Program-made: the position numbers and the translations under genes | Shown here: piece by piece, positions 8,276-39,401 of the stretch | How the letters are laid out: each line of letters opens with the position of its first letter | Position numbering within the stretch: the stretch's first letter is position 1 | Source: Aplysia californica | Lineage: Eukaryota | Assembly (NCBI RefSeq): GCF_000002075.1 | Contig: NW_004797358.1 | Coordinates: 1,495,825-1,557,164 of the forward strand | Direction: 5' to 3' | DNA: 61,340 nt | Notes under the pieces: generated by a model | The model's input: the letters and a program-made list of their open reading frames with translations, nothing else | The model's database searches: none | Told to the model about the DNA's origin: nothing

Positions 8276-8451
8276 TTAATTCGCAAATATTGTGCCCATA
8301 GGGAGCCAGATACATTTACTAGCAGTAGCCTGGTACAGAAACTCTGGTCCCTGGCCTTGTTCGGGTGAGGAAAAGTCCCTTGACACGCCATAGTTCACCC
8401 AGGTGCGCTTGAAATTACCAGCAGAGGCAAACTCCATGTAGCGTGAGCCAG
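8276..8451 (-). CDS. ALDH16A1: ALDH16A1 exon 15 (last coding exon)
   Basis: [21 protein letters not shown]...[26 protein letters not shown]; TAA 8278-8276. Confidence 0.93.
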
Positions 8452-11400
8452 CTGGGGGTGAAAAGAAAATGATTAGTGCTTGCAAAAGTTTTGACTACAA
8501 TGATTGTAACTTTTTTCATCTCATCAATATAATCTAGATCATATCTTTCCAGAAAGTTGAGAATGTTTCTGAGCATTCTAGGATCAGCTGGGATAATAAT
8601 ATAGATTGTCAAGTGAATAGAGGGTGCTGCCGAGTGGGAATATGCTCCATAAAAATTGCTATTTATTATCATTTATTTTTTAAAGCGAGGGAGCGAGTTC
8701 AAATAAAAGGTCCAGAAAGCAGGTTGGCAGTCTAGTGAATCATTCTCCGACCCTGTCATAGCAGCCCCCATGTGATCAAAAGTGGTTTGTACAAACTGAC
8801 TGGGACTGGAGCATTAAACGCACAGCCCGCAGTACATTTTCTCACCTTCTGAACCAAAGTACCACACAGCACTAATGTCATGGTGTTCAGCCAGGGCCCG
8901 GGCTAGAACATCGCTGTCACCAGTCAGGATATTCACCACTCCAGCCGGGACATCAGAGGTCTCAAGGATCTAATACATGAGGCAATAATAACGATACTGA
9001 TAAGAAGAAGAATGAGAAAAAAAAAAAAAAAAAAAAAAAAAAATAAATAACATTTATTTAATAACTAGCTGGGCCCCCTTTCGATGAAAGAATGATCGGT
9101 GCATTAACATCAACTGAAAGTCATTGGCCTACTATATTTACTCTACTGGAATGGAGTAATATATCTTGAGAGATGCAAAAAATTAGAAGGTCCAGATCTA
9201 TACTGTCAAAACAAAATGCGCCTTGTAAAATATCACTTCCGGCACTTTCACTGGAGGACAGCTACACAGATTTGTTTCGTTTCTCAGTGGAATAATCACA
9301 AAGGCCAAAGAAGGACGAGAACTTTTTGTCAAATATATTTCTCTAAACTCAGAAAATGAATAAATAAAAAATCGGGCTCCGTCTTGAGGACCTATCTATA
9401 TTTTTGCAGGTACTAGCCAACTTTCAACTCTGTAGCTGTCGCATTTTTATGGGAAAAGTGACACATATTTCCAAGTTGCCAAATATATATAATTGATAAC
9501 AACAACAATAATATTAATAGTAATAATAAGAATATCAAACAGTATGCATACTGTGAACCTTGCATACAACATCAGATTCAACGAAATCTCGAAACGACAG
9601 AAAAAAAGAAGAAGAAACTCTTCTTTTTAAAAATTCATATAAGTCAAGCAACACACCTTACTTTGAATTCCCTTTAACTCACCCAGCCCTAACGCCGATA
9701 TTATCGGTATGGAAAATTTCGCTCTCGTGACCGAAAACACTACTTTTGTGTGAGGCAGACTATAGCCTGATTAGAAGAGTAACCATTTTTCATTTGAAAC
9801 AGACTATGACAAGAAGTGCAAGCCCGAATTTAGAATATAGACCTTTTCCACAGAGTATTGCATACAAATTTTCAATACACACAAATAAAGGTTTAAATAA
9901 AATCAATTTTGGGTTGGATATATTATGTTAAAATTACAATTAAATTTATTTTTTTCAAAAAGTAGTAAAAATCACAAGGGAGAGCTGACAACCCTGAAGT
10001 GTAGGCCTAGGGTTGAGTGAGATAATGAGTGGCTTTGGACACAATGAAGTAGTTTGCACAATAAATTTATGGGTTCAAGACTCCTCTCAACTAAGAAAGT
10101 TATTTACAAGACTTGATCAAATTCCACATCCACCCCCAATACGACTGAGCCAAGAGCATGTAGAGACTAGCAAATTCCCCAAACAACCAAAGTTCAAGAA
10201 GGCTCCATTGTCATTGAGAACTTAGCAGAATTACTCATAATAGGGTAAAGGTAAACAATCAAAATCAAAATGAAAATAAGAACATAATAACCACCTGCTG
10301 AAAACCTAGAGCCGCCATCGGGTATTTTCCACTTGGGACTGCAATCACAGGGTTACCTCTGGAAATGGCAGGAGCCATCAGAGAAATAAAACTGAGGAGA
10401 GGGGCTTCATCAGGGCACACAATCCCAATCGTTCCGACTGACTCATGGCGTTTCACAGTGAATCCGCTGAAAGGGGTTTCCTACAGGGAAAAAAGGAGGG
10501 TCCAGTAAGAAATAGAAAAGTGTTTGTATTTTGTGAATGCACAGTAAAGAACTTTAAAAAAATAATTCAAATGAAATAGTTAAAACAAGAATTACTCTAT
10601 TGATCCTTCACTGGAAGAAATTAAAAAAGTACTGTCATCAGCTTCTGTAACAAAAACTATAAATACACAATATCATATCAACACATCTCTCTTTGTCTCT
10701 GTCTTTATCTTACACTCTCCCCCATTCATTCATTTCCTCTCTCATTACTAACACATAACGTGGTAACTGTATGGAGGAAGGACAAGTAGGCCTATTATAT
10801 AGAATACTGAAGTGATGATGTATTCATAAGACAAAATTTTAATGTTATAATTTAAACGGAGAGTAGGTCTATCTGATTTTGAAGATTTCATACAATTGTG
10901 AAGCCCATCTTAGCAAAAATTTTCTAAATTGTTGCTAGATCTAGTTCTGATTTGCTGAATTTGATCTGCTAAAGCACAGGAGTTCATTTCTCCTATAAAA
11001 TTGCATTCGATTTGCCATCTTGAAGGTTTATCCTTCTTTTTCATTTTTCTCTCATGTTCATAATGCGATGTGCATATGTTCAGCAATTGTGCTGTGATAG
11101 TTTGAATTTCTGCTCATGTCTTTGCATTATCTTCAGAGAGTAAGTATACAAGTTCTTGCACATGTATTTCGTGTTAAGATAAAGGTATTGTAAAGCGCCT
11201 AGACCTGAATTATACAGAAATGAACCCTATAAAAGTTATCAGCATTATTACTATTATTATTATAAATATTATTATCATAATAAATTTACAGTTCCAACTA
11301 GATGACAAGACAACTGCTGCTCACAGAAAGTATCTCTGAATAACTAGACGGTATGATCTGGGTTTATAACAATAATTACAACAGTTCGTCCATCACAAAA

Positions 11401-14400
11401 CTGATGTTGACCTCTAACATCCAAGAGGAGGTCAAGCTACAGTACGTAGCTAGCATGGTAAGGAGAGAAAAGTAAAGGAATTAAAAGCGAGCAACTTGTA
11501 ATCTAAAGTCAGAGTGAAATTTTAATGAGGTAAACATTAAATCAGTGGAGACAGAATATCAGAATTATGATAAACATTAAATCAGTGGAGACAGAATATC
11601 AGAATTATGATATAATGATAGCCCTAATCCCATAGCACTAAACTGATAAAATGGAAATGAGCTGGCCAGCTATAAGGAGTTAATGTGAAGCTTTCCACCA
11701 GAGGGCACACATGACTGAAAAAAAGTAACAAAACTTGTAGCATCTCTTAGAGCCATATACAGTCGAACCTGCCTTAACGGAAACCTGTGTAAAACGGAAA
11801 CCTGTCTTAACAGAATCTCCCCGCTCCCCCCTTGATATATTCCTCTTTAATTACCTGTATAAAACGGAAACCTGTCCAACGCGGAAACGGAAAGAAAAAT
11901 CCGCTCCCTTCCGAGGGTTTCACCTGTCTAAGACGGAAAATGCTTTGCCCGCTCAGCCCTGATTTGAAACAAAACTCAGAAGTTTGATTCCGCCGGCTCT
12001 AAACTTAAGGCCATGGCCATGCCGCAGGGAGAGGAAGGGGAGTAGGGGTGCAATGGGGGTAGAGTAGAAGTTACCCTATGTTACCCCATCATGTGAGCAC
12101 TGCAGATGGTCAGTGTAGTGTGGGTGTGATATCTCACGACTGCCTGTGAGAGTGCTCGAGTAGCCAGCCACTACGGGAACTTTCCTGGGTAGCCAGAAGC
12201 CAGAGGTGTGAAATTAGATTGACCAATGCCTGCTGCCCTGATCGTATGGTCAGCTGAGAAAAGAGTTCCTTGAATCGCTGTTACAATGATGGCAGTGAGG
12301 GGTGGCATTGGTGGGTGGGACCACAGAAGACCAATACTATTGGTGTTCTGTGGGTGGGACTAAGGGGGTAAGCAAAGGAGATGTTCAAAAGTTTCTGTAT
12401 TTAACAGGTCAAACAGTGGTCCCATGAAAGGCAAGCATTGGTGGTAATTGGGTAAGTAAGACTGACGCATGTCACTATCAGACAGGATAGCAGCTGAGAG
12501 GTGTGAAGTTTTGACCACTGCTTGTCGATCAGACAAGCGATCCTAGATCCCACCAGCTGGGCCTTTGTTGAACCCTCCACCCCCACACCCCCCTAAATTC
12601 CCCTGTCTAAGACGGAAAATGTCTATGACGGAATTTTTTCCCCGCTCCCTTTCGATTCCGTCTTACACAGGTTCGACTGTATTAGGATCAGTGCTAAAAA
12701 AATTTTAAAATTCAAAATGGCTATCAGTATGATTATTATTGTTATCAAATCAACATGATCCTACTTGAAGGTCTCCACCATATTTGTCACAATAGGCAGC
12801 CCAGTAGAAGAGGCGCTGGACTGCTTGCTGCACTTCCTGAGCGCTTGAGGACAGCTCTTGTCCTGTCATGGTGGAGAGAAGAGCAGCGTACTCCTCTTTG
12901 TGGGACTCCAGATTCTCGGCCAGGTAGTACATGATTTGGGCCCGTCCATGACCCTCTTTCTTTGACCAACTGAGAGAAAAAAAATGAGATTGGACGTTAA
13001 CACTTTTTCAGCAGATAAAAAAGTGAAGAAGACATCCCCCCCCCCCCCCCCCACCCCCCCATCTGGTTACCCAGCCAGGAGAGGGACAGCAACGGACTTC
13101 TCGGGCTTGGTGCAGAACTGCGCCAAGAGACCAGAACGAATAATTTTCACAGTCGTATTATTGCGACGAGTTACTGCAAAGTGTTAAAGAAAAGAAAAGA
13201 AAAAAGTGAAAGTTAGGGTTCAAACCACTTTTCATTGGTAGAATATAATACCTTTTCACCTTTTGATATATTTTTCAGAAAACTTTCATGAAACTTCATA
13301 TCAGAACGCATACTTTTCATCAGAAAAAAAAAAAGACTTGAATTCCCCATAATTTTCATGCAAAAAGTCACCATCATTTGCTAAGAAAAATAAGGTACCA
13401 AATGATGCATTTTCAAGAATCCCATTTTTTTGCATTTTCATGTACACAGATCATTTCTGAATAATAAGCATTTTGAATTTTTAAGATATCTTCAGTACTT
13501 TTTGAAATGCGAGTGATTTTGTAAGGCAGGGTACGGAAACAAAGTTTTGAGAAAAACGGCTTTAAAGTTTCCGTTTGTTTTTGCTTAAAATAGATAGATC
13601 TACGCTTCGAGACGACCTGACAACACATTTGCTACACACAAACCAACTCTAAAAAGCATCTGAGACAAAATAACAGCTTCAAAGCGTTTATATTACATCT
13701 TCAAAACAAATTCACCACAACCTTGAACAAGAATTTTCAAGAAATAGATCTAGTGTAGATTTTCGCAGTGCAGAAAAGAGCGATACATGTACAAGTTTGC
13801 TCTCCAAAAAAGCGAAAGGGTGGGGATGCAGAAAGCTTCGCTTTGTTTACATGTTCTAGATATTCATGTGCACTATCTGCGACTAGAGAGAGGAGAGAAT
13901 GACGTAAATTTTGGTATGCAATGTGATTGGGTTGACTTTACGAATGGACAAGAGAAACCATGGATCCACAATGTTTACTCGGAAAACCAATTTTCTTACG
14001 CATTTTTGGAATTATGCAATATGCCTCGTGTTAAGAAACATCTTTAAAAATGTATTTTACAGTAAAAGAAACCCAAGCCTTGTAAATATCGATACATGAA
14101 TGGCTAAAGAATCCATTTTTAAGGGAACTTAGTTTTTGTCAAAAATTCTATTTTTGACCTTTGAAGCCTGATATCTCGGTTCGAGTAAATGCATCTTTTG
14201 GTACCTTTCACCAGGCATGCTCACAAATGTTTCGAAATTAACAAGACAAAACTTCTCTTTACATTTGTCTTCACCTTTCAGTACTTTCTCCCTACCTTCC
14301 TACAGCTTTGACAGCAGCTTCCACAGCATTGCGGATATCCTTCCGCCCTCCGTCGGGGACATAACCTACCACTGTTCCACCGCGGTTCAGAACTGGCCGG

Positions 14401-17400
14401 CTCGCTCCAGAATCTGGTCTTTTCTGGCCTCCACCATAGAAGAGCTTGTAAGTTTTATCCACCCTGTGGATGAGATGTTCAGTGCTTTACTTGGCTAAAT
14501 ATTGGTTGCTTATCGGGACACAGTGTGGAGAGGGAAAAATAGAATATACAATAAAAAATAAATATAAACTTTAAATGCCAAACAAGTCAGACCTTGAAGT
14601 TGGCACACCGGCCAAAAGCATAACCAGTTGCAACCACAAGTCACCTATCACCTGTCGTATGGTTGTGTTCACCCTTGGGTGCCCCACTTTTAGTCACAAC
14701 AGGCCTCCATCTTCCCCAGCCTTTGCTTTGATGTATTATTTCATGAAATTGTAGACCACTGTTAGATTTCACATTTTAAATGTGTGATGTAGGAGGTCTT
14801 CCCTCATTTTCTTTGCCTCTGTTCTGCCCTACAGCACAGTTGCTATTGGGTCTATTTTAATGCTTCTATTTGCGTGACCATGTTACTTGAGTCTTCTTTA
14901 GCTGATCTCAAAAAGCATTCTGCTCTGTGTATCAAGTTCTTTCAGGATACTTTCATTCGTTCTTTTATCTGTCCATTTGACCCAAAGCAGTCTAAGTCTT
15001 CGAAAAAACCACGTTTCTGCAGCTTGTACTCTGTCTTTGTCTTCCTAAGCCGCACTCCGATACAAAACTACAGGCCAAATCAGACTTTTCAAGTCATGCC
15101 TATTCTGCATTTGACATCCTTAATACACGTTCCATCCTCTGTATTTGCAGAACCTAAATATTTAAAGTTTGTTACATTTTCCATTTTTAACTCATCACAA
15201 TGAAAACTCAAAAGGACATATTCCACGATAACACATGGATTTGTATAACAGCGATTTCTACAAACAAAAGACACAAGAGGCAAATTATATGAGGCTGCCT
15301 ATAGGGCTAGGGACACAACACTCTGGAACAAAAAAGGCCTTGTCTGTAAAACCAGATTAGCTGTGAGTTCAAGAACTTAAATGGTAACCCATGAGCTCTT
15401 AGAAGTGTTGAGGAAGGGGTAGGGAGTGGGGTACACACACGCACCAATGGCAAGTTCTATCTCTGTGCTATCCCTCTACTATTTAAAAAAACCTCTCTTT
15501 CATTACTAATCACTATTTGACCCTAAGAAAGCCGATGTACCTATTTTATTTTAAACTCAAACTATGAGCCCCAGTGTGAAAGAGCAGAAAGAGAACAAAA
15601 AAAAGGTGACTCTCACCATCCCTTTCCTTTCCAAACTGCAAAAGCCAATACGTCTACTACTGCAAGCACTTACCCTGGTCCGTCACCACTGGAGCCACCA
15701 CTGGCCACCTGAGCTCCAGGCAACAAGTTGGGACTAGAGGCAGAGCCAAATTTCTTGTCCACTTCACCATCAAAGATCAGTCGATTTTGCCAGGATGGCT
15801 TCACATACTCGTACAAACCCTAGACGGAGGGAGGAAAAAGAAAAGAGGAGACAGCTCATATAAAAACATAACCCAGTAATGTTTGAAAATGCAAATGTAA
15901 TGAAAGTCAGGGTAAGAGGTAGAGGGTACAGCAGGTATTTCCTCCTTCTATACTATCTCTTGGGTGAATCTGCTACTTTCCTTTTTGGAGGCCCACACGG
16001 TCATCAGTGCACTAACAGGCGTCTTGTAAAACGTCGACTATGACAACATACTTTTTACAAAGAGGAACTTACAATAGTTCAACAAATAACAATAAAAATG
16101 GAAATTTATTGGAACCAAACCAGTTAAAAGACATGACCATGTATATAAAGAAAAAAAAAGGGACAAATGGGAGCCCTATTCGCTCTCAGTTGGACTCACA
16201 ATACATAAGTAGTAAGTTTGAATCCGAGATTAGTCAGATAGGACTTTGTACAGTAAAAGTTACAGTACCCATTTTTCTATCAGTTCAGTCAGCAGCAAAC
16301 TTGTAGGTAGCAATTGGAAAAGACATAATATGTAAGCAATAAGAGGAAACATCAAATAGGCAACAATGTTTATGTTATCCTGGGGACAAAAATAGTAAAT
16401 TGGAATGGCCAGGACAACCAGAGAATTATTATGGAGTAATGGAGTATACTGTGAGCTTTCTCTGGGACAAATGACTTTAAAAAAATAAGTAAGTGTTTTT
16501 ACACCCTAACAACATAATTTAGATAATTTAGGAGGCGGGCATCAACTCTGTCTATCACGGTCGACCCTGGGTGAGACACCTCAGCATAATGACCCAGATA
16601 CTCGGTAAAAATTCAACCCACTCAGGAACGTAACTAAGGTCTCCTGCATGTGACAGTAAAGCACCTAACCACTACACCACAGGTGCCAGGACAAACGACT
16701 TAACAAAAGGAAATTTTACACTTTTAACTCGAGCCAACCACACTCACCTCTTTCCCACCAGTTCTTCCGAAGCCGCTTGCCTTAGAGGCACCTGTGCCAG
16801 AGGCCGCATCATACATGTGGTGTCCGTTGACCCACACTGTGGACACCTGGAGCAGGGCAGCCACCTCAAGGGCAACAGTCAAGTCCTCTGTCCACACACT
16901 GGCTGCCAAGCCAAAAGGAGTGTGGTTGGCAATTGTGACACTTTCCTTGACCGTCCGGAAGGGAACTGCCACAACAATGGGACCAAGAACCTACATTTGA
17001 TTTCAGAAAAGAGAAATTAAGAAAAAGAAATATACCACATTCGATCCTCAATATGGGGAAATTTGAGTTAAAATAGTAAGTACATGGCATGCATAAAAAA
17101 GGGCTGAGGTTACATCATCATGTTAAAAATAAGGTTATTGTAGATAATTTATATGTTATCTTTGACACAATTTACATCATTTATGAGACAGGCTGACTTC
17201 TCCCTGCCTGTCAGGGCCAACCTGGGCTGAGATGGACATGACGTCCCAGCAGAAAGATGGAGATACCTGAGAAAAATTCTCCCCATACAGGAATCCAACT
17301 CATATCTTATGTGCAGTGCCGAAGTGCCAATCTGCTACACTACAGATGCTTGTCATCATAAAAATATTAACTCTCGAACTCACAACCACACGATAAAAAG

Positions 17401-20400
17401 TCACGATTACAATTCTGCTAGCCTAACCACTAAGTCACCAACGTGCCATACCATGTCACATATTATAACATAGTTGCAAACATTACCACACTGCATGCCC
17501 TTGCTGGTCATCAACAGATCAGCGCTCTGTACCCATTTGCAGCTGGGTTAACTGAAGCAAATCGAGTAAACTGCCTTTTTTAGGGATATAACACTCTGTT
17601 TGACTGAATTGGGAATCAATTTCAGCACTATTTTGTTGAAAGTCCAATGTCATGACCAGCTTTTGTTTCTTGAAAGATTTAACATTCGTTATCCTTTTTG
17701 TCTCCTTGAAAACCAAATTATACTCTCAAATATTCCTGAAATATAGATGCTGAGAAAGTCGATTATTGGACATTTTCAATCCAAATTTATGACTAGATAT
17801 ATTTTTTCTAAATAAAAATATTACCCTTAAATCTAAGAACAGTTTATGGGAATGAAACCTATTGTGAAATATATATTACTCACTTCTTTCAAATAAATTT
17901 CTGATGAAGTTTGTACATTTGTAATGAGTGTCGGAGGGAATGAATTCTGCCTTACAGTTGAAAGGTCACAAGCCTGAACCACCTGAAGAGGAGACAGTAA
18001 AAACCTTTAATTAAAACAGGAAGTAAATAAATAGAGGATGTTGAATCTCAACAGCATGAATAATGTACGTGTACACAGTTCCATTATAATTCAGAAAAAA
18101 GAAAGTTAACCATTGTATCTTCATTCTGATCTTTACTTTCAACTATTACAAGATTTGTTCTCAAACAACAGAATAAATCTGACAGGAGAGGGCGGCAATC
18201 TCAAAAATGCAATACTTGCAAGTCACCAAAGTAAACAATGAAAACATTACCCAAAAAATCAATACACAAATGAGAGATAGCTGAACACCATAAAATTATC
18301 TAAAACCACATTTAGAGAAAAAATTCGCACCTCGAGGAATTCTCAAGTTTATACTAGAAAGAGCAACTGAGGGCAACAAATAAAGCCATGAGAAGGTTAA
18401 CCTGACTTACCATATTCTGTTTAAGCGGATAAGCGTACCACTTTAGGAAAGGGAAAACCGCTGTTTTGGCGAGTTGTGGCGTTTGTGATCATTGCAATTG
18501 CCTCCTAATATTTCCTTTACTTTTCTCTCTTTACCATGTTAGCTACCTGTAACAGCTGGCAAGGTCTATAACTTTTCTTCCTCAAACAAACTAATTTTAT
18601 AATTATCTCTGTCTTTACCTCTGCCCCCTCAGCCTTTGCTCGTTCAACCAAGCTGGCAACACAGGAAAAGGTTTGATCGTCCAGTAATGGTCCCTGGTCA
18701 ACATTCTTGTCCAGGTTGTCTCCAACCGTCAACTTGTATATCCGTGCCTTCAATTTCTGTACAAAAGCCTTGTAAACAGTCTCTTGGATCAGGAGTCTTG
18801 AGCCAGTGTAAAAGGTCTGAGTAGATAGATTAAGACATTTCATGAGAACAGATGACAAAAGGTAGAAAAATTGAATCACAGGCTGTTCACGGCTCCCGCT
18901 TCATATGTATCATAACACAATGAAATCAGGCACTATTCAGTTTTGGGGCATACACAGTTACGATTAAAGGAGGTGGGGGTCACCTGGTGTCAGAGGTAAT
19001 AATATTAGCGAGAAAATGGTTTCCAAAGAGTGGTGACTTCTAAAATGTAAGCATTTTTAGAAACTGCTAGTTGACCTTTTTCATGCCTTTGATCAATATT
19101 TTGCAGCAAAATCCACACAGAACTGTTTTTTTTAAATGAACACACAAAAAAGGTGTTGAAAACCCCCCCCCAACCAATTGATAAAATTTGTCCAATGAAC
19201 AAATTTTGTATTTAGAATAGATTGAATTTGACATTTGATTCATACACGTATATAATCACCAAAACACAAATTATATGAAAATTCCTTCATTTCTTGGCAT
19301 TTTGGTGCATGATACACTTATTCTGTGACATATTTGGTCTAAATATGCTGTTGTTGTGTATCACCTTGATCAGAATTTAGTCAAGGGAAGAAACTCTGAT
19401 AAATCAATTCTGATCTAAATTCTAAACACTTCAATAGTTGATGGTGTGAAAGACTAGCTATTCCATAGCTTTTTTAAACATAGGTAGGCTAATACTAACC
19501 TATAAACAACACAGATGTAAAAATCAATACTTCTATAGAAAAATGCTTTTCACTTTTTGAAATCGGTTCATAAATAAAAAAGTGATAGCTGTGTACATGT
19601 CGGAAATTGTGGGTCTTTTGGAGAAAATTCCTAGAGGAATTGTGGCGTCAGTGGCCTAGTGGCTAGGCTCTCGGACCCGCAACTGTAAGGTCGAGGGTTC
19701 GAATCCCGTCAGGGGCCCGATGTTGTGTCCTTGGGAAAGGCACTTTGCATAAATTTTCCTCACTTCACCCAAGTGGAAAAGGGTACCTGGCTATAGACAG
19801 TGAACGATCTTGTCAGTTTGATAGTGTTTGAGCGCGTGAAATCCGCAGCTTGCACTGTATGCTTCCGCGGAAGCCGAGAATGTTTCTGAGTGTTCTCAGA
19901 GGGTCTGCTGGGGTAATAATAGTCGTAAAGAGCATAGAGCATGCTCTTGAGCACGGATATGCGCAATATAAATGCAATTATTATTATTATTAATAAAGAA
20001 GGGGAAAAGGTACCGAAATAATTACACAGGTTTCAGATTTGCTACCAACCAATCCTCTTTCTTCAATAAAAATTTGACTGTTACTGAAGATTATATCAGA
20101 AATTTTTTTTTCTGCAGTGAATGCCTCGATTTCTCCAGCATTTATTGATGTATGATACATGGGGCGACGCAAAAAAACCAGTGCTATGAACCAGCATGTT
20201 CCAGGGTTACCCTGGTGGGGCAAGTCTAAACCGTTTTCCCACTGCATGTGGTATAGCTTTAACGTCCAACAGCTATTCATTCTTAGTATACAGAAGGCTA
20301 CTCTACTTGTATGCAGTCATTTTTTCATCCTACTTCAGTGGCGTCGGTAGTTAGTAGTGAGGCTACCTGACTCGTAACCGTTAGGTTGCGGGTTCAGGGG

Positions 20401-23400
20401 CTCGACCCTCAGCTCCGTCCGACGTTGTGTCTTTGGTAAAGACACATTACATGAAATTTCAATTTGGCTTGTTCCTTTCTGAGACTGATGTTAAACTCAG
20501 AGGTCCCGCCACTTTAAAAATCTATTAGTGTCGATAGAGGCATTAAACCCATGCCATTTCATCCTATTTCAGCAGATCTACGAGTCACATTATAACAGCT
20601 GAGCCACGCTGTGCACCAAGCAAGAAAAATGTATTTCTGTTGCACTCAGTACGTTGAAACATTTTTCTTTAAAAATAGTCAATTTTTAAACTAAGGCAAG
20701 AATCATATATTACCTACTTTCAAGAATGACTCAATACATATGAATTCTGAGAGTTGGGCATGAAAAAAAAATTATGACACGTAGGGGTCAACATTTCACC
20801 AACTGTTCACCACATGACAATTGGTCGCTTTTAAACACAAGGGGGCTATCCCGAAAAATGCTGTTTTGAGAAAATCGAAGGTAAAGTTTTTGCCGCTTGT
20901 TCAGTTTCTTTAAAAGACAAAGAGAGTTTTCTCTATAACCAAACAAATATCCACACCAATGAAACCAAATTTCTCCTATAGGTAGGGCAATGTCTACTTT
21001 TGGTGCAGGTCAAGATTTCTGGAAACCCCCAAAATCTGGGTTAGCCCTCTTGTCCTTAAAAGCGACCAATTGAAAAGCATATCCAATGTAAAGTCACCTG
21101 TCCGGAGTTGAAAAAAGCAGCCTCAACAATGCCTTCTACCGCACTATCCAGATCGGCCCCTTCAAAAACCAAGACGCTTGATCGTCCAAACATTTCTAAG
21201 GACAGATCCTTGCCACTGCCAGCGGTCATCTGCCTCAGAGCCTTGCCTTCCTGGAGTGTAAACAGAGAAATGTTTAGTAAGAGTTTTACTTCACCTGGAA
21301 CACAATTAGGTTATATATAAGTGCAGAAGATTAGAGGTGTTAAAAGAGAGTAGCAAGCACAAAAAAAAGAAGGAGAGATAATGGTGATAGATGTTTGAAA
21401 GGAAAGCAGGAGCAAACTACACCACAGCACCCTCCAACCACTTATGGACAGAGAAAATTTCCATAAAAGACCTAGTTCTGCTGAAAAACACATTTGTTTT
21501 ACTGAAAAAACAAAACCTATGGCATCAGCAGCACTAGGAGTGAGCAGGCAAATGTTTACGGCATAAAGATTACTGATACTGTTAATAATAAAATCATTTT
21601 TGAAACATTCAAAAGTGTAAAAATTTCCGTGTCCTCATAGTCCCAGACAAAATGCAACAAGCCTGCCAGAACAGCTGGAGTAAAGACTAATAAAAGAGGG
21701 GTAACAGTTAATGAAATCCTAGGAGACGGGAGGCAACACCATCAGAAATCAGTGCCAGTAAAATGATAGGTGTATAAAACAACCCGTTCCTAAACAAAAA
21801 ATTAACATACCAACAAGCAGGCAGGTAAGAATAACTTATGCAACCATCTTAAATTGGTGTACAAAAAAGAAAAGAGACAGACAGAGATAGAGGGGCTTTA
21901 AAGAGAGACAGGCAAACAAATAGAGAGATAATGTGAGTAAAATTAACAAAGTTCATGTACAAAAACACACACAAACACACCTAAATATTAAATGCAGACA
22001 AATAAATCCCCAAAACGCCAAAACACTCACAGAAGCTGAGCCTGCAAATACAATCTTGTCCAGGCCATCTTTCGCAGCCACTCTCATGACATCAGCGCCA
22101 GTGACCACATTGAGCACGCCTGCAGGGAGGCCAGCCTGAGAGCAGATGTCAGCCAGGAGGAGACAGCTCAGAGGGTCAGATGCAGGTGGGATCACAAGCA
22201 CGGTGTTTCCCATGGCAAGGGCAGAGGCTACTTTCCCTGCCATCTGGACCAAAGGCAGCCATGCAGGCACAACAATGGCTATCACTCCTACGAGAGAAGA
22301 AAAAAAAATTGCTTGACAAAAAAGACTGTGAATGACAATGTATTATTACACTTCATCCCTCAACAACATAGGCACAGTTCAGATCATTCATGAGATAGTA
22401 GGCTCCCCTCCTGAAAACTTCCCCAACAAACTTCAAACTACTATTTCAGTTGCTTCGGAACAGACCAGCATTCCAGCCTTTTAGGGTTAGATGGTTATAA
22501 TTTAAAAGTCTTTACTGGAAAAACCCCCACCATCTCCTAAATGATGAATGAGAAGAACCAATAAGCGTAAAGTTATAATTTACTAGTGAAAAGAAAACCT
22601 TTGTACAACATCCAGAACTTATCTTAAGGAGTCAAATGATATTTGCCGTATGCATTCAACCCAAGACATTTTCCCTTCCACTTCTCGCAAGTTCTCATAA
22701 GTGTTATTTCAGTAGACAGTATAAATTTTTTGCAACTTCCAACTAGCAAAGCAAAAGTGAAATAGGCAAACAGGACCTCTTGGGATTTTTTCTCGTATCT
22801 AATATATTACAAGCTCGACACACCTAATCTAGAAAAGGGAATCCATGGACAACCATAAATAAACAAAAAACTTTTTAAAAAGTACCATAGCACAAGAAGC
22901 AAGCATTTTACTTCTGGACAACTGCACCCCTGAAGACAGAAAAAAAATCCAGTTCAGAGAATAAAATGTACCATAAGGTTTCCAGCCCCTCATCTGTTCC
23001 TCCATGAGGCCTGCCCAACCAGCATTGTGGTAGAAATAGCGGATGGCTGCTGGAGCCGACAGGCCCCTTGTCTCACGAGTGGGTTGGCCAGACGACACAG
23101 CTTCCACAACAGCTAACAAAGACTGATGTTTCTGAAGGTTGCGTGCAATACTGGGGTAGATTAGAAAATCAGACAAGGAGAATGAAAGTGAAAATTCTAA
23201 ATCTTCTCTGTACAGAATTATAATACAGACAGGATTATTACGAGAAGCTTTGTCATTTTTAGAAATTGAAGATAATAAGTTATTGGACTTTGGCAGCAAA
23301 CACATTAAGAGCACCAAATATTTTAGTCTCAAGAACCTTGGCTACATAGGCATATCACGTTGTCATAGGAAAGTTTTAAACCACAATTATGAAAAAAATA

Positions 23401-26400
23401 CAGATTTATTGTCTTTCAGAAGAAGCATTTCATTAATTTGAAGCCAAACATGAAAAATATCAGCAAAAGTTGTCTTTACCCCTTCTCTGCCCTACAAATA
23501 TTTAACCCTATCCGTACGTAGTGTTTTACTATCGTATCCATATGACGTGGGGAACTCTGCCAACACTTTCCAAATAGGAAATTTACTCGTTAATCCGACC
23601 CGTAAACTGTGCATGGCAGTCGGTCAAAAGGATTTTTTGAGAAATACTGAAAATTTCAAAGAGATCTTCGTACTAGAAGTTTTCTAAAATGTTAAGAATA
23701 CAACCCCGGGGGTACAAAATAATCCCCGGGCGTACAGATAGGGTTAATGTCATCACTAAACCATAACAAAGAGGTAACCTGTAAAGATGCTGAGCTCGAG
23801 CATGTCCTGATAATTCAGACCAAGACTTGAATGCTTGTTTTGAATTGTCAGCAGCAAATGCAATATCCTCGTCATTAGCCTTCAGAACTGTTGCCAATTT
23901 TTCACCTAAATTTTGAGAAGAAATTAACAATTAACATAGAAGCTGACTGAAAGATCAAGGCATATTTTTCATCTTTCATCCATGGCAAATACTGACCTAT
24001 ATATAGAAAGAATAATTTGAATTTGCGTTGTGTGTAGTTGGTACCTCTGGCAGCCAGTTTGCTGGTGGTATTGTGAAGAAAATTTGCATAGTTTAGTAAG
24101 GACTGTACAACTCATACAGTTGAAGGATGGCAGTTTAAAGGGGTAAATAGTATGTTTGTTTGTTTGTTTGTTTAGTATAGGGTTTTACGGCGCTCGCAAC
24201 TGCATAAGGTCATATGAGCGCGCAGAACACACCTAATACTTTTTCGTTGGTAGGAAATTTTGAATTTTGCCCGGGTGGCGGCCGAAGCCTACTCTTATCG
24301 ATTTTAGACCACCAAGGGATCTATAACGTGCGCAACTTGCACACGGGCCCTCCGAGATTTTTCGCCCTTGTCCGAGAAGGCTAGGTGTAGATCTTTCCTA
24401 CCAGAAGATCAGGGGTGTGGTAGAAAGACAGCTGTAAGAAGGAGTCAAGGAGTAACAGTAGAAAGGCTGCAGAAAGAGTCAGGAGCCCAGAGGAGGGGCA
24501 AGGGAGGTGAGAGGGTGGGGGCAGAAAGAGGAGACGAAAGCAGACGACAGAATATTGCTAGAGAGCAGGAAAGGAGGTGAAAGGAGACAATTTTAGAGAA
24601 GAAAATTTTTCAGTCGCTACCCAACACCTTAACCTCTAGGCCACGAGAGCCCTCAAATAGTATGTTTATATCTATTGGCTTTGCTTTTTGTGCATTGGCA
24701 AACCCTAGCAAAAAGCAGGGCTGGTGGCATAATGGGGGCTAATGGCTAGGGTAATGAGGTTTGACTGTAGGGCCCATTAGTTTATAACTTTCCTTCAGGC
24801 AAGTAGAAAACACCATTCAAAGCACTGAGCAGAGAGCCACAGAACACTGAGATTCCAAATGCACGATATACTTAGTGTCTTAGCAAAACAGTCAATACTG
24901 AGGTAGTTGTACACAATAAAGTAGCTTCATAGCGAAGGCTTCATGTCATTTAGAAAGAAAGTTCACATTTTGTCAATCATAAAGCATGGAAGATACTTTC
25001 GTCTCATCCTCAACTTAGATCATCCATATCTCCCATCCACCTCGGTGTCCTCATGAAAAAGTTTTATTTCTTATTGATGAAGAATGACATCTTCATTTTT
25101 CATTATCACAAGTGAAACAATGGAATCTACAAACTGACCATGCAGACGTCATCCATGAGGTGAACTGACTCTGGTTGGAGAGACTGTCATATATTGTGGT
25201 TCATTCTCATTTCATATGGCAAATCACAACTGGTTCAAATTATGAGGCAATTAGAGCAAGGTAAGAAAGGACAATACAGTGTTTCGATAGTTTCAAATGT
25301 TTGTTTTTTTCTTTTTAAAATTTTACATAAAATGAGATTTGATGTCTAGAGCCAAGTTCCAAAGGAGAGTATACAGAAATCAGCAAGTGAAAAGTATTCG
25401 GAAACATCCCCATGTGACATATTTGACAAAAGTTTCTTGTATACCAAAAACTCTTCTCACCCTGCAGGAAAAATTAAAATAGTAAAGCAAACCCTCCAAC
25501 AGTGGGTAAAGAAAACGTTTTTTTTTACAAGGAACATATTCTATCTTGCATTAAGAAAAAAATATGTGTATCACCTTTAAAAAAGTGATAAAATCAATTA
25601 TTAGTTATGCATGTTTATAAAACTAAAAGGTCAAGATACAAGTGAAAGAACTTTCAAACAAAAAGAAAGGAAAAAATAAGCATAATTGTTTCAATAGGAA
25701 TCCATGGTTCCAATTTTAAGATGCGGCTATATCAAATTTAGAATGCTAGACAGTATTGTAAGTCAATTCAAAAATGATTTTCCTAAGACGAAACCAAAAA
25801 AGTATAGTTTCTCATTGTCTCAGCATCTCTACCTGTAGTTGGTTTTTTCACATCAACAGTAGCTCTTCCCTCGGTTTTGTTCCATGTGCCATTGACGAAC
25901 TGTCCAAAACACTTGTTGTGTTTGTCAAGCCAAAGCTGTGAAAGGATATCATGATTTAAATGTCACAGGTTGAGAACATACCAGGATCTATTTTATTTAA
26001 GTTTTAAAAAAACAACAACAAATCTCTGCCCAGGCCTAACACTTATTATACACAAACATCAGTGCAATTGCTTCAGAGACTACAACACATAAATAGAATC
26101 AAGTCCTCCTGTACCCACCAACCTAGAAAATTGACTGCACATGTAATGCTCATCATGTTCTACATGAAAGTCACCTGAAATAAAGTGACAGGAAGGCTTG
26201 GTCTCAGTTAAATTAGACAATGCTTATAATAAAAGAGAGATCTTAGCCAATTATTCTTTGGGGGTAAAACCTAGATCTTTAGCATTGGGGAGATTTTTTT
26301 TACAATATTTTGCGGTGCTGGTTTAGTTGAAGGTCTACTGTGCTACGGTCATCTACATAAGTCCCACCCCATTGACCACGGTCAATTAACTCAATTGCAA

Positions 26401-29400
26401 TCTAGCACAAGTCCCTCCTGATTGGTAATGACAGTGCGGGGGCCAATAAAACCAAAAGTAGTGGCATTACACAATAAATTGTAATGTGTGGCTGGGAGGA
26501 TTGCCCCTGATTCCCCTTCCCCCACAACCTCCTCTTCCTCCTTCTCTAGTCTTGTTCCCCCCCCCCCCCCCCCCCACACACACACACAAATCGATCACAA
26601 CCACAGGAACATTATAAATATCGGCAATGACAGACGTAAGTCTGAATAAACCAGAGACATTGCAGTAGACCTTCAACTAAATAAGTTGTCAGACAAGTCT
26701 TGCAGTAGTCTGTCATCTAAACCAGAAACATAGTAGTAAACCTTTAACTGACCCAGCATCCGTTCTTTTTAGAACTGGGAGGGGCAAACTATGACCTGTG
26801 CCTGTGGTTCAAGTACAACCATCCTCAGGTAGTGTGTGGCCTACAGAAACATTTGGCGAATTTAATCTTTAACTTTAACAAAATCTTTTTATGAAGTGAC
26901 AACATTTAACATTTAAATATAAATTTATACTCGAGCAGACACTAGCTTTGGTAGTGTTGAATATTACAATGAACCACTTTATAGTTAGAGTAGACCCATT
27001 TCGCATTTTCCCAATACAGTGGAACTCGGATTCAATGAAAGGAGATGGATTCCCCAGTTTTTTTCCACTTTAAAATCAATAAAAATAACCCAGATTCAAC
27101 AAACACTTAATTCAGCAAGCTCGGATTCAACGAAGTCGTTTCCAGGGTGAACAGCGACCGCAGACATTAGAGGAATATCATTCAGTAGCTACAAGACTAC
27201 ATGTATGTGCCATCATTCGTATCTGTTTCTTGTGTCCATTATTATTATTTCCCTTATTTGTCAATCATATTCATCTGCTTTATTTCTGTTCCGTTTCTGT
27301 CCCAGTCATGCATCGTCTGACGTATGTCTTCATTGTGCTTGATTAGCAAAGTCCTCGTCAAGTCACAAAGAGTGTTGACATTTATTTATGAAGACATAAG
27401 AGATACATCATGACCACCATCCCTTGCCCTGCCCCGAGCTGCGACGTGGAGTGGCCTGCATCTACGCCGACTGAGGTGTTGACACGCCTCATTGACATCC
27501 ACGCCACCACAGCCCATGCAGCACGAGCGAATGCACCGACTGCGGCAGCCAAGGCTGAGAAAGTGCGATGCCCTGTTGTGTCTGGATCCGGAACGAGCGA
27601 GGCGTGGTCATACTTCACCCAACGGTGGGCCGACTACAAACAAGCGACTCGCCTCACTGGTGCAGACATCGTCTTCCAGCTTCTCGAGTGCTGCGATGAG
27701 TCGCTACGAAAAGATCTCACAAGGACATTCGGCGCCCTAGCCTCCAGCGAAGAGGACACTGTCCTAAAGAACATCAAGAGCCTGGCGGTGTGCCAGGAAA
27801 ACATCATGGTAGCACGGGTACAGCTACATCAAATGAAGCAAGACCGGGACGAGCCTGTCAGAGCCTTCGTCGCCCGCCTCAGGGGCCAGGCTGGGGTTTG
27901 CAACTTCAAGATAAAATGCCCTAGGTGCTCTCCAGATGTCCACGAATCCAGCGTGGACTATAGCGATGTGATGATTCGTGACGTCCTCATCCGAGGTCTA
28001 ATTGATGAGGAGATCCGACTCGACATCTTAGGTGAGTCAAAGCAGGACATGTCCCTTGAGGATGTACTCTGCTACGTGGAGGGGAAGGAGAGTGGCAAGA
28101 GGTCAGCCAGTCGCCTCGTTGAAATCTGCTCCTACACCACGGCAGCGGCCACAAGCTCCTACAAGCGCAGTGAGAAACTCGGCATACAGGGCAACTTGTT
28201 CCACAGTAAGGGCCAAGTGTTCCTCTGCAATTACTGTGGCAAACTGGACCATGGGAATGGTAGACAGGAATGTATGAAGAAGTGTCCGGCATTTGGTAAA
28301 AGATGCACCAGGTGTGGCCTATCCAATCATTTCACCAACCTCTGCCGACAGTCGTCACGGAACAGCAACCCCACCAATGCCCTGGATGACTCTGCTGCCG
28401 CCTTTGACAGTCTATGCGGTGCAGATTCCGCCACACCGGTGTCTAATGCGCACTCTGTATCCCTAGACCATCATGTATGCGAGTTTTGCAGGGCATGGGA
28501 GAAGCGAGCATCCGACCCTCAGCCTTTTGTGAACGTCACCATCCAGGCAGTGTCTTCAGACGCCCAATCTCTCGGTTTCCCGCCACCTCTGAGAGGCAGC
28601 ACCTCTCCCGTCAAGTACCAAGCTATGGCAGACACTGGGTGCCAGTCGTGCCTGGCGGGCGTAGCACTCTTGACTAGGATGAGCCTCACTCGCCGTCATC
28701 TCCTCCCTGTCAACATGAAGATGACAGCTGCGAATCGTGGGGCCATTGACATCATCGGAGCCCTTCCCCTTCGTATTTCTGGAACGTCTCCGTCCAACAC
28801 CTGGCTGGTGACCCACCAGATGGTGTACTTCACCACATCCACTGGTCGGGTGTTCCTAAGCAAGCAAACCTCTGTGGCTTTGGGAATAATTCCTCCTAGC
28901 TTTCCGACCATTGGTGCCACCAGTGCAGCCATCAATTCGAAGGACAAGCCGGCTTGCGGGTGCTCACACCGCCAACCACCTCCGCCACCACCAACCTCCC
29001 TCCCNNNNNNNNNNNNNNNNNNNNNNNNNNNNNNNNNNNNNNNNNNNNNNNNNNNNNNNNNNNNNNNNNNNNNNNNNNNNNNNNNNNNNNNNNNNNNNNN
29101 NNNNNNNNNNNNNNNNNNNNNNNNNNNNNNNNNNNNNNNNNNNNNNNNNNNNNNNNNNNNNNNNNNNNNNNNNNNNNNNNNNNNNNNNNNNNNNNNNNNN
29201 NNNNNNNNNNNNNNNNNNNNNNNNNNNNNNNNNNNNNNNNNNNNNNNNNNNNNNNNNNNNNNNNNNNNNNNNNNNNNNNNNNNNNNNNNNNNNNNNNNNN
29301 NNNNNNNNNNNNNNNNNNNNNNNNNNNNNNNNNNNNNNNNNNNNNNNNNNNNNNNNNNNNNNNNNNNNNNNNNNNNNNNNNNNNNNNNNNNNNNNNNNNN

Positions 29401-32400
29401 NNNNNTCCAACCGCTTAACCGACATGCAGCGCGGGAGACTCACCACACTCAGTCTCCCTTCCACCAGGCCCGCAAAGTGCCACCCCACACAAGGAAATCG
29501 GAATTTGACGCGTGGAATGGCTACCATAGCATCGCTCTTGCTGAAGAGGATAGACATTTGACGACGTTTATCACCCCATGGGGTCGTTATCACTATCTCG
29601 TGGCCCCTCAAGGCTACATATCATCCGGGGATGGATACAGCCGACGCTTTGATGAGATCGTTGCTGACTTCCCCCACAAAACCAAATGCAATGACGACAC
29701 CCTTATGTGGTCAAACTCTATTGAGGAAGCCTTTTTCCAGGCCGTCAAGTCGTTTGACCTATGTGGCACCAATGGCATCATACTCAACCCATCCAAGTTC
29801 CAATTCACCAAAACTAGGGTTGAGTTTGCAGGTTTCGAAATAACTCCCTCCACCGTGCGCCCATGTGCCCACTACCTGGAGGCCATTCGACATTTCCCCA
29901 CACCTCGGAACATCACTGACGTCAGGAGCTGGTTCGGTCTCATCAATCAGGTATCCTACTATGCCTTCGCTTCCGCTGAATGAATGCTCCCATTCTGGAA
30001 AGCCCTGAAGCCGGGAAAACGCCTCGAATGGACAGAGGAGCTCGACCGTCTGTTTGAATGGTCAAAGGAGGCCATCATCAATGAAATCCACCAAGGGGTT
30101 GAAATATTTGACAAGAAGAAACCAACTTGCCTAGCCACCGACTGGAGCAAGGATGGCATAGGCTTCTGGCTCTTCCAGAAACATTGTACATGNNNNNNNN
30201 NNNNNNNNNNNNNNNNNNNNNNNNNNNNNNNNNNNNNNNNNNNNNNNNNNNNNNNNNNNNNNNNNNNNNNNNNNNNNNNNNNNNNNNNNNNNNNNNNNNN
30301 NNNNNNNNNNNNNNNNNNNNNNNNNNNNNNNNNNNNNNNNNNNNNNNNNNNNNNNNNNNNNNNNNNNNNNNNNNNNNNNNNNNNNNNNNNNNNNNNNNNN
30401 NNNNNNNNNNNNNNNNNNNNNNNNNNNNNNNNNNNNNNNNNNNNNNNNNNNNNNNNNNNNNNNNNNNNNNNNNNNNNNNNNNNNNNNNNNNNNNNNNNNN
30501 NNNNNNNNNNNNNNNNNNNNNNNNNNNNNNNNNNNNNNNNNNNNNNNNNNNNNNNNNNNNNNNNNNNNNNNNNNNNNNNNNNNNNNNNNNNNNNNNNNNN
30601 NNNNNNNNNNNNNNNNNNNNNNNNNNNNNNNNNNNNNNNNNNNNNNNNNNNNNNNNNNNNNNNNNNNNNNNNNNNNNNNNNNNNNNNNNNNNNNNNNNNN
30701 NNNNNNNNNNNNNNNNNNNNNNNNNNNNNNNNNNNNNNNNNNNNNNNNNNNNNNNNNNNNNNNNNNNNNNNNNNNNNNNNNNNNNNNNNNNNNNNNNNNN
30801 NNNNNNNNNNNNNNNNNNNNNNNNNNNNNNNNNNNNNNNNNNNNNNNNNNNNNNNNNNNNNNNNNNNNNNNNNNNNNNNNNNNNNNNNNNNNNNNNNNNN
30901 NNNNNNNNNNNNNNNNNNNNCGCCCATACCATCAATTCCGGGAGTTCCTCACGACATTTGATGGTGTCATCCTGTACCACGACTGGGTAGTTATACCCCC
31001 GCCGCTCCGTGAGCGAGTCCTCCAGTCCTTACACTCTGCTCACCAGGGTGTGTCCCAAATGTGCTCTCGAGCTGAGGCCTCGTTTTTCTGGCCCGGCATA
31101 ACCCCGGCCATCACTGAAGTGCGGGCCCACTGTCAGTCATGCAACCGCATGGCACCTTTCCAGCCGAGTGCACCTCCCATCTCTCCAATAGCACCGGCAT
31201 ACCCATTCCAATGTATTGTGGCAGATTATTTTCATCATCGAGGCCACAGCTACCTAGTTGCAGTCGACAGGTACAGTAACTGGCCTATCGTTGAAAAAGC
31301 CTCCCATGGATCCGCCGGCCTCGTTGCCGCGTTGCGTCGCATCTTTGTCACGTATGGCATCAGTGATGAACTGACATCGGACGGAGGCCCGGAGTTCACG
31401 TCCCTGGCAACCTCCACCTTCCTTCGCAACTGGGGTGTCCACCACAGGATCTCTTCAGTCGCCTTTCCTCACTCTAATTGTCGCGCTGAAGTTGGAGTAA
31501 AGACAGTGAAACGGTTGATCACTGACAACACGGGTGCACAAGGATCTTTAAACACTGATAAGTTCCAGCGCGCAATGCTGCAATACAGGAACACTCCTGA
31601 CCGTGACACCCACCTATCCCCAGCGATGAGTATGTTTGGACGTCCAATACGGGACTTCATCCCCATCCACCCAAGGAAGTATCAGCCTCACAGTACCTGG
31701 CATGAAACCCTTCTGTCGCGAGAGGAGGCACTGAGGAACCAGCACATGCGCACCGCTGAGCGCCTCTCTGAGCACACTCGCATCTTACCTCCACTCGTCG
31801 TCGGTGACTGTGTGCGCATACAGAACCAAACGGGAACCCACCCGACCAAATGGGACAAGACGGGCATTGTAGTGGAAGTACATCAATTTGACTAGTACGT
31901 CGTTTGAGAGGATGGCTCTGGCCGCGTCACCCTTCGCAACAGAAAGTTCCTCCGCAACTACATGCCTGTGGTCCCGTGCTCACCACTGACGATGATCCCG
32001 GGTGGCACCTCACCACCACAGCCAGCGCCTCAGAATATTCACCCCCCCCGAGCATACCAAGTCCAGCGTGACCTCGTCGCCCTCTCCTTGCCCGGATCTA
32101 CCACAACCAGCTGGCATTCAGGACCCCCAAGCACACGATCCACCGATGCCTACTGTCCCCGAATCCGGGCAAGAATTAGCGCCTGATCCACGCCCTGCTG
32201 TCGAGACGGTGGTTCTACAACCTCAGGCTCAAGCCCCCCCGCGTGCTCTACATGTGCTCCAGCAGCACAACGCCCCTGGCATACAAGAGCAAGATGTTCC
32301 CATAAGCGTGAGCACGCCTCCAGGCGGCCCTCGGCGATCAGCAAGACTATTGGCCAGACAGAGCCCCAAGCCAATTGACTCTAAATCCAAATCTGATTCT

Positions 32401-35027: not shown

Positions 35028-35102
35028 ATGGAAAGCATAGGCGATCCTAGCTCAGATAACTCCCTATCTGATGCATTCATCAAGAACCTCTTGCTGAACT
35101 CT
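35028..35102 (+). CDS. PIH1D1: PIH1D1 coding exon 1
   Basis: MESIGDPSSDNSLSDAFIKNLLLNS; GAAATGG Kozak-like context; GTGAGT donor. Confidence 0.78.

Positions 35103-37117: not shown

Positions 37118-37151
<34 letters not shown>

Positions 37152-39366: not shown

Positions 39367-39401
<35 letters not shown>

What the first reader, a model, noticed from the sequence alone, without database searches (positions are those of the whole stretch)
18808..21112. Invertebrate ALDH16A1 lacks the catalytic cysteine: probable independent pseudoenzyme
Seen: the exon 6/7 junction reads [18 protein letters not shown], which aligns without gaps to the active-ALDH motif FNxGQ-VCCA-GSRLLVQE; the nucleophile position is Phe303 (codon 18813-18811) and the next residue is Tyr. 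The 815-aa frame and all 14 introns are intact, so this is not a pseudogene. Known: ALDH16 from bacteria, frog and several invertebrates is reported to keep the Cys, while mammalian and fish ALDH16A1 lack it and are considered non-catalytic scaffolds. Inference: convergent loss of catalysis in a further animal lineage, suggesting the non-enzymatic role is ancient.
Basis: partly seen in the sequence, partly recalled or inferred. Interest (0 to 1): 0.75.

Follow-up and report, generated by a model that had tools for sequence, protein, structure and literature searches.

The report
Snail ALDH16 lost catalysis, like ours
This sea-hare gene encodes an intact aldehyde-dehydrogenase-16 protein that has lost its catalytic cysteine, as in all ten higher snails and slugs sampled and most likely separately from the same loss in mammals, so it is likely a non-catalytic protein, probably kept as a partner of the DNA-sugar-splitting enzyme DERA.

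Summary
Observation confirmed. The 15 exons (all introns GT-AG) give the 815-aa protein filed as Aplysia californica ALDH16A1. Phe303 (codon 18813-18811) aligns without gaps to catalytic Cys295 of Loktanella ALDH16. The oxyanion Asn (Trp174) and NAD-binding Lys (Ile197) are also lost; the fold is predicted intact. The loss is not Aplysia-specific: 10 of 10 named heterobranch and caenogastropod snails lack the Cys, while limpets, abalone, bivalves and cephalopods keep it. A shared origin with the vertebrate losses is rejected (AU p=0.0004), and a PIH1D1 neighbour marks the same locus as in vertebrates. Amniotes, neopterygian fishes, insects, chelicerates and some bacteria also lost the site. 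Whether snail and arthropod losses are separate is not settled by the gene tree. Likely retained job: partner of deoxyribose-phosphate aldolase (DERA). deoC lies upstream in 77 of 80 bacterial loci, also beside crippled copies; a fusion exists; human ALDH16A1 co-precipitated DERA (one peptide). The scan had noted the bacterial deoC-ALDH16 pairing before, on other DNA. No read-level junction check, activity assay or complex model was obtained.

The parts
8276..34435 (-). ALDH16 gene, 15 coding exons: 34435-34352, 25935-25833, 23905-23779, 23150-22972, 22287-22031, 21250-21098, 18816-18619, 17982-17884, 16990-16748, 15819-15674, 14463-14296, 12969-12765, 10480-10295, 8969-8846, 8451-8276
   Evidence: the exons translate to P0001 (815 aa) plus stop; all introns GT-AG
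18811..18813 (-). Codon 303, TTT (Phe), at the catalytic-Cys position
18817..21097 (-). Intron 6 (phase 0) between Gln301 and Thr302; no alternative Cys-restoring exon found
22031..22287 (-). Exon 5: oxyanion-hole Asn replaced by Trp174, NAD-binding Lys by Ile197, Thr of the FTGS loop by Ala246
21098..21250 (-). Exon 6: general-base Glu269 kept, the loop after it altered (Phe271, Arg273, Ser275)
16748..16990 (-). Exon 9: NAD-ribose loop Phe replaced by Leu402; substrate-channel neck Phe replaced by Thr466
   Evidence: neck residue named in PMC12041015
8276..14463 (-). Exons 11-15: extra C-terminal Rossmann-like domain that defines ALDH16; the best conserved part in this protein
35028..49933 (+). 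PIH1D1-like gene, divergent from ALDH16; matched exons 41920-42039, 42745-42885, 49715-49933; first exon 35028-35102 inferred, its ATG 593 nt from the ALDH16 ATG
27178..32790 (+). LTR retrotransposon inside intron 1 (LTRs 27178-27388 and 32580-32790, 98% identical; RT and integrase domains; assembly gaps); not part of the coding frame

Best explanation
This is the positional orthologue of ALDH16A1, an intact gene whose catalytic Cys, oxyanion Asn and NAD-binding Lys are replaced, so the protein is predicted to be catalytically dead; the loss likely happened once in the ancestor of heterobranch and caenogastropod snails, separately from the vertebrate losses, and the protein is probably kept as a binding partner of deoxyribose-phosphate aldolase (DERA). 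Shown: sequence changes, intact frame, distribution of the loss, rejection of a common origin with vertebrates, PIH1D1 neighbourhood, the deoC-ALDH16 gene pairing in bacteria. Inferred: no activity; one apogastropod event without a surviving active copy; the ancestral enzyme oxidised the acetaldehyde that DERA releases from deoxyribose 5-phosphate while bound to DERA; the chemistry became dispensable where other ALDHs clear acetaldehyde, while the structural or binding role stayed under selection. Odds by step: dead enzyme 0.93; independent of vertebrates 0.9; separate from arthropods 0.75; DERA binding is the retained job 0.5.
For: Residues: Cys295->Phe303, Asn165->Trp174, Lys->Ile197, Phe453->Thr466; Glu269 kept; no Cys between residues 214 and 352. 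Fold: model pLDDT 89, pTM 0.88, Z 54, rmsd 1.4 A over 733 residues to 6MVS. Distribution: 10 of 10 named apogastropods lack the Cys; 4 of 4 other gastropods, 6 of 6 bivalves and 3 of 3 cephalopods shown keep the whole motif; 133 of 162 ranked hits keep the Cys. No Cys-keeping hit from a named apogastropod among the best 120 of two searches. Apogastropod rows form a clade, 98*, and share the same new residue at 13 of 20 jointly changed columns; other pairs 8-39%, one 6 of 10. Clade with vertebrate Cys-less rows rejected, p=0.0004. PIH1D1 next door, as in frog, coelacanth and human regions (PMC3530029, PMC4015844, passages). Selection: 100 of 114 invariant C-domain columns kept against 153 of 209 in the ALDH unit, p=0.003. 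DERA link: deoC upstream in 77 of 80 loci, 73 within 400 nt, and 30 of 30 further loci; DeoC-ALDH16 fusion P0128; Cys-less copies L095-L097 and Asn/Lys/Glu-less copies L105-L107 stay behind a deoC that keeps its lysine motifs, one match per genome; human ALDH16A1 co-IP list has DERA as one of 2 non-ribosomal preys of 8 (PMC12405490 Supplementary Data 7, read whole); both proteins appear among 19 impurities of an AAV gradient prep (PMC4554548 Table 1, passages).
Against: No activity assay and no read-level junction check. Gene trees never recover Gastropoda: held together it is not rejected in two sets (p=0.071; 0.058) but narrowly rejected on variable columns (p=0.038); the full tree joins all protostome Cys-less rows at 99* (91; 72). 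The C-terminal-only tree does not join heterobranchs with caenogastropods. Absence of an active paralogue rests on ranked hit lists, not on whole genomes. The DERA evidence is indirect: one peptide in the human co-IP; nothing for snail DERA, whose presence in this genome I could not check. The stronger C-domain constraint is not general (turtle+mammals 0.63 against 0.68-0.71; insects 0.52 against 0.56-0.61). Cys-less bacterial copies show relaxed selection (dN/dS 0.37-0.46 against 0.13-0.18), which slow decay would also give. Other partners are reported for the human protein (thioredoxin, maspardin, HPRT1).
Confidence: 0.6

Rival explanations
1. Ancient protostome duplicate: one inactive ALDH16 paralogue arose once early in protostomes and survives in apogastropods, insects, chelicerates and tardigrades, while bivalves, limpets, cephalopods, annelids and crustaceans kept only the active paralogue. 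The loss would still be independent of vertebrates but would be older and shared with arthropods.
For: All 21 protostome Cys-less rows form one branch, 99*, 91 in a smaller set. Gastropod monophyly is narrowly rejected on variable columns, p=0.038. Apogastropods share only 10-15% of the states diagnostic for active gastropods.
Against: These are the longest branches. The group dissolves in the C-terminal-domain tree, where insects join a turtle, and has support 72 on variable columns, where active crustaceans and cephalopods also join the fast rows. Arthropod monophyly is not rejected, p=0.30. Snails and insects share new residues at 37-39% of jointly changed columns, as do snails and amniotes, 29-37%. 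No named protostome shows both types. Loss in place, with a single match per genome, is seen twice in bacteria.
Confidence: 0.2
2. Dead enzyme kept for another partner or ligand (thioredoxin, maspardin, HPRT1, or aldehyde/lipid binding), with the DERA link lost or irrelevant in animals.
For: Human ALDH16A1 binds thioredoxin and targets it to lysosomes (PMC12405490, passages); maspardin binding and a proposed HPRT1 interaction are reviewed in PMC10650815 (passages). Different Cys-less lineages conserve different regions.
Against: These partners are shown only in mammals. The link conserved from bacteria onward is deoC, and DERA is in the same human co-IP list.
Confidence: 0.25
3. The protein is still an enzyme with altered chemistry (a Ser/Thr nucleophile or esterase), using the kept Glu269.
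For: Glu269 is kept in 9 of 10 named apogastropods; Thr302, Thr305 and Ser299 lie in the loop.
Against: The nucleophile position varies freely across snails (Phe, Asn, Arg, Thr), the oxyanion Asn and NAD-binding Lys are lost in all of them, and reviews state that every active ALDH has the Cys (PMC8160307, passages).
Confidence: 0.05
4. Artefact or decaying gene: a wrong splice model, an assembly error, or a pseudogene in the making.
For: The junction was not confirmed in RNA reads; the protein record is a predicted model (XP_005094794.1).
Against: Gapless alignment across the junction, canonical splice sites, no alternative exon; changes in four separate exons; full-length open frames with the same dead site in 9 other named snails; Aplysia-Physella identity 71% in the C-domain.
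Confidence: 0.03

Closest known systems
Mammalian ALDH16A1 pseudoenzyme
   Same: Two-module ALDH16 architecture, about 800 aa, catalytic Cys and Asn absent, PIH1D1 in the same region.
   Different: Separate origin (AU p=0.0004). The mammalian loop is shortened and Glu is lost; the snail loop keeps its length and Glu269. The snail protein is closer to active frog ALDH16 (49-60% by region) than to the primate row.
Loktanella ALDH16 (PDB 6MVR/6MVS/6MVU), active on hexanal
   Same: Same fold over 733 residues, rmsd 1.4 A, 44% identity; best PDB match by sequence, E 4e-184.
   Different: Keeps Asn165, Glu261, Cys295 and Phe453 (PMC12041015); three of these four are replaced in the snail protein.
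Xenopus ALDH16B1 and Cys-keeping animal ALDH16 (limpets, abalone, bivalves, cephalopods, crustaceans, echinoderms, sharks, lamprey)
   Same: 50-54% identical, full length; most likely the same orthogroup despite the A1/B1 names.
   Different: All keep the full catalytic and NAD-binding motifs. The Xenopus paper (Pantouris 2019) was seen only as a reference line.
Cys-less ALDH16 of insects, chelicerates, squamates, turtles and neopterygian fishes
   Same: Full-length proteins with a dead active site.
   Different: Different replacement residues in each group; more diverged in arthropods. I found no paper describing these invertebrate cases in the ten searches listed.

Membership tests
ALDH16 family (cd07111) | Classical ALDH unit followed by an extra C-terminal Rossmann-like domain, 750-830 aa | tested here: met
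   two Aldedh stretches; full-length match to 6MVR/6MVS
ALDH16 family (cd07111) | Groups with ALDH16 orthologues rather than other ALDH families | tested here: met
   6MVR 617 bits against 250 for the next family; nested among animal ALDH16
ALDH16 family (cd07111) | ALDH16-type homodimer through the C-terminal domain | not testable with these tools
   two copies exceed the size limit of the complex tool
Active NAD-dependent ALDH | Catalytic Cys (Cys302 equivalent) | tested here: not met
   Phe303
Active NAD-dependent ALDH | Oxyanion-hole Asn (Asn169 equivalent) | tested here: not met
   Trp174
Active NAD-dependent ALDH | General-base Glu (Glu268 equivalent) | tested here: met
   Glu269
Active NAD-dependent ALDH | NAD-binding Lys192 and Glu399/Phe401 equivalents | tested here: not met
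   Ile197; Glu400 kept, Phe replaced by Leu402
ALDH16A1-type pseudoenzyme | Intact, conserved gene lacking the nucleophile | tested here: met
ALDH16A1-type pseudoenzyme | Expressed with this splice form | tested here: inconclusive
   predicted RefSeq model only; no reads laid
ALDH16A1-type pseudoenzyme | No dehydrogenase or esterase activity | not testable with these tools
   needs recombinant protein
Vertebrate Cys-less ALDH16A1 lineage (common descent of the loss) | Forms one clade with amniote and neopterygian Cys-less proteins | tested here: not met
   AU p=0.0004
DERA-partner ALDH16 | Physical binding to long-type DERA | not tested
   no model obtained; only gene context, a fusion and a one-peptide human co-IP

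The most novel reading that the evidence does not exclude
ALDH16 is a structural subunit of a DERA complex conserved from bacteria to humans. Its catalytic site was discarded at least five times in animals (apogastropods, insects, chelicerates, neopterygian fishes, amniotes) and repeatedly in bacteria, because binding, stabilising or positioning DERA is the selected job. The function of human ALDH16A1, including its gout link, would then run through deoxynucleoside breakdown.
Probability: 0.35. Interest if true: 0.78.

Novelty: new member of a known kind. Interest (0 to 1): 0.55.

Why it matters
Human ALDH16A1 is a gout-associated dead enzyme of unknown function, and a recent review (PMC12041015) treats inactivity as a vertebrate trait. 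The data here show that amphibians, sharks, lamprey and bichir keep the site and that snails, insects and chelicerates lost it too. Repeated loss of chemistry with the protein kept points to an older non-catalytic role. It also gives natural active/dead pairs (abalone and sea hare; frog and lizard; two bacterial genera) for testing that role, with DERA as a concrete first candidate.

Tried and rejected
No whole genome is held for this window, so copy number and DERA presence in this species were not checked. Run search listed no holder on record as RNA (no evidence either way); no reads were laid, so the junction is unconfirmed at read level. A single-sequence fold was useless (pLDDT 38); the alignment-based fold was used. 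The complex prediction for a bacterial ALDH16-DeoC pair returned no model (no verdict). Inter-protein covariation on 86 paired loci gave nothing above shuffled pairings (top Z 5.5 against 6.0-6.8). No solved structure covers the N-terminal extension of long-type DERA. A metagenome scan for Cys-less loci gave 6 loci, one an ALDH16, Cys-keeping. The 30 loci fetched of 36 matches in 401 alphaproteobacterial genomes were all Cys-keeping. L079 read as Cys-less but the alignment there looks broken, so it is not counted as a loss. A-to-I editing was considered: it could turn Tyr304 into Cys but not Phe303 (TTT), so it cannot restore the nucleophile. The tardigrade row has a degenerate site but its Cys column differs between two alignments, so it is not counted. 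Primary papers (Vasiliou 2013, Liu and Tanner 2019) are not held; their species lists and supplements may already include a snail or arthropod, and this bears on novelty. Literature searches: (listings only unless cited as read); none named Aplysia or gastropods as a term. One genome flagged unpublished (G035, L119) was left out of all analyses.
Full report
Observation. The finding's coordinates are right. Exon 6 ends at 21098 and exon 7 starts at 18816. [quoted passage not shown] It maps to 15 minus-strand exons from 34435 to 8276, 815 of 815 residues, with 14 GT-AG introns. Codon 303 is TTT and codon 304 TAC. Intron 6 has 3 AG sites followed by x-Cys; all run into stops within 20 codons. The junction was not checked in reads.

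The active site. Against the solved, active Loktanella ALDH16 (6MVR, E 4e-184) the region is gapless. With the residue names given in PMC12041015 (passages): Cys295 pairs with Phe303, Asn165 with Trp174, the neck Phe453 with Thr466, and Glu261 with Glu269 (kept). The NAD-binding Lys (Lys192 in human numbering, PMC8160307, passages) pairs with Ile197. There is no Cys between residues 214 and 352. The changes lie in four exons, so no single splice or base error explains them. The fold is predicted whole: pLDDT 89, pTM 0.88 from a 69-row alignment, Z 54 and rmsd 1.4 A over 733 residues to 6MVS. By established ALDH chemistry this protein cannot form the thioacyl intermediate; inactivity is inferred, not assayed.

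Who shares the loss. Of 162 ranked homologues from two searches, 133 keep the Cys and 29 do not: 17 squamate rows, 1 turtle, and 11 snail or snail-like rows. With Aplysia, 10 of 10 named heterobranchs and caenogastropods lack it (Aplysia, Physella, Lymnaea, Biomphalaria, Elysia, Plakobranchus, Babylonia, Nucella, Littorina, Batillaria). Patella, Lottia, Haliotis and Gigantopelta, 6 of 6 bivalves and 3 of 3 cephalopods shown keep the whole motif. The clade names are from my own knowledge. A scan of 50%-identity representatives, named through (30 proteins looked up, most of the rest left unnamed), adds dead sites in horseshoe crab, ticks, spider, scorpion, four insect groups, bowfin, cichlids, platypus and a primate. 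Crustaceans, sharks, lamprey, bichir and amphibians keep the site. Elephant shark keeps the Cys but has lost Asn, Lys and Glu.

Independence. In a 74-row tree (18 of 92 aligned rows left out as unnamed or redundant) vertebrate Cys-less rows nest among Cys-keeping vertebrates, bowfin and cichlid beside bichir at 99*. Forcing snails together with vertebrate Cys-less rows is rejected, p=0.0004 (35 rows). Heterobranchs and caenogastropods join at 98* and share the same new residue at 13 of 20 jointly changed invariant columns, which favours one event, although the C-terminal-only tree does not join them. The window also holds a PIH1D1-like gene on the other strand, 593 nt ATG to inferred ATG. PIH1D1 and ALDH16A1 share a region in frog, coelacanth and human (PMC3530029, PMC4015844, passages; the head-to-head layout in human is recalled). 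So the snail gene is at the ancestral locus.

What is not settled. The full tree joins all 21 protostome Cys-less rows at 99*. This looks like long-branch attraction: the group breaks up in the C-terminal tree, where insects join a turtle; it has support 72 when conserved columns are dropped; and arthropod monophyly is not rejected (p=0.30). But gastropod monophyly is never recovered, with p=0.071, 0.058 and 0.038 in three tests. An old protostome duplicate with reciprocal losses stays possible, about 0.2. No active apogastropod paralogue turned up in the ranked lists, but no snail genome could be searched whole.

What it likely does. One representative, P0128, is a DeoC-ALDH16 fusion with four members. 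In bacteria deoC lies upstream on the same strand in 77 of 80 ALDH16 loci, 73 within 400 nt, and in 30 of 30 further loci. DERA splits deoxyribose 5-phosphate into glyceraldehyde 3-phosphate and acetaldehyde (established knowledge), so the ancestral enzyme likely cleared that acetaldehyde. The scan had already noted this pairing in at least 8 other genomes; I met it independently. New here is the behaviour of dead copies. Three genomes carry a Cys-less ALDH16 (L095-L097) and three carry one without Asn, Lys and Glu (L105-L107); each is the only match in its genome and still sits directly behind a deoC that keeps its lysine motifs. The Cys-less trio has dN/dS 0.37-0.46 against 0.13-0.18 for active relatives: constrained, but relaxed enough that slow decay is not excluded. 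For the human pseudoenzyme, the co-IP table of PMC12405490 (Supplementary Data 7, read whole) lists 8 preys: 6 ribosomal proteins, thioredoxin and DERA (one peptide). Both proteins also appear among impurities of AAV gradient preparations (PMC4554548, passages). In Aplysia the C-terminal domain keeps 100 of 114 invariant columns against 153 of 209 in the ALDH unit (p=0.003), which fits a kept dimer or partner surface, though mammals and insects do not show this asymmetry. I commit to DERA partner as the most likely retained job, at about even odds; binding of the snail protein was not tested.

Known and new. ALDH16 pseudoenzymes are known in mammals (PMC10650815, PMC8160307, PMC12041015, passages). 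I saw no paper on a mollusc or arthropod case, or on an ALDH16-DERA complex, in the searches. The primary ALDH16 papers were not available, so prior mention cannot be excluded. Verdict: a real, clade-wide, independently arisen member of a known kind of pseudoenzyme. Its value lies in the repeated losses and in a testable lead on the open question of what ALDH16A1 does. Interest 0.55.

Noticed in passing
window 27178-32790: LTR retrotransposon in intron 1 of ALDH16, opposite strand, 211-nt LTRs 98% identical (recent insertion), RT and integrase domains, two assembly gaps.
   Followed up: partly
window 34435-35028: ALDH16 and a PIH1D1-like gene lie head to head, about 0.6 kb apart, probably on a shared promoter; the pair also shares a region in vertebrates, so the linkage may date to early bilaterians.
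   Followed up: partly
P0128 (59-312 DeoC, 351-1136 ALDH16): Natural DeoC-ALDH16 fusion with an intact catalytic site, four unnamed members.
   Followed up: partly
L095-L097 and L105-L107: Two separate bacterial lineages with crippled ALDH16 still behind deoC; in L095 the conserved N-terminal extension of DeoC also departs from the consensus.
   Followed up: partly
P0068: Elephant shark ALDH16 keeps the Cys but has lost the Asn, Lys and Glu equivalents: a further, partial degeneration.
   Followed up: no
P0043, P0045, P0046, P0061, P0066, P0124 and other squamate rows: Many lizard and snake ALDH16A1 models carry an N-terminal Myb/SANT-like domain (about 1200 aa); real fusion or gene-model merge not checked.
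   Followed up: no
representatives: 62 of 72 full-architecture 50%-cluster representatives lack Cys at the nucleophile column; biased, because active proteins collapse into few clusters, but it shows how often ALDH16 degenerates, including many unnamed bacterial-looking rows.
   Followed up: partly
A3 alignment, columns 1-50: Long-type DERA has a highly conserved N-terminal extension that no solved DERA structure covers; a candidate ALDH16-binding part.
   Followed up: no
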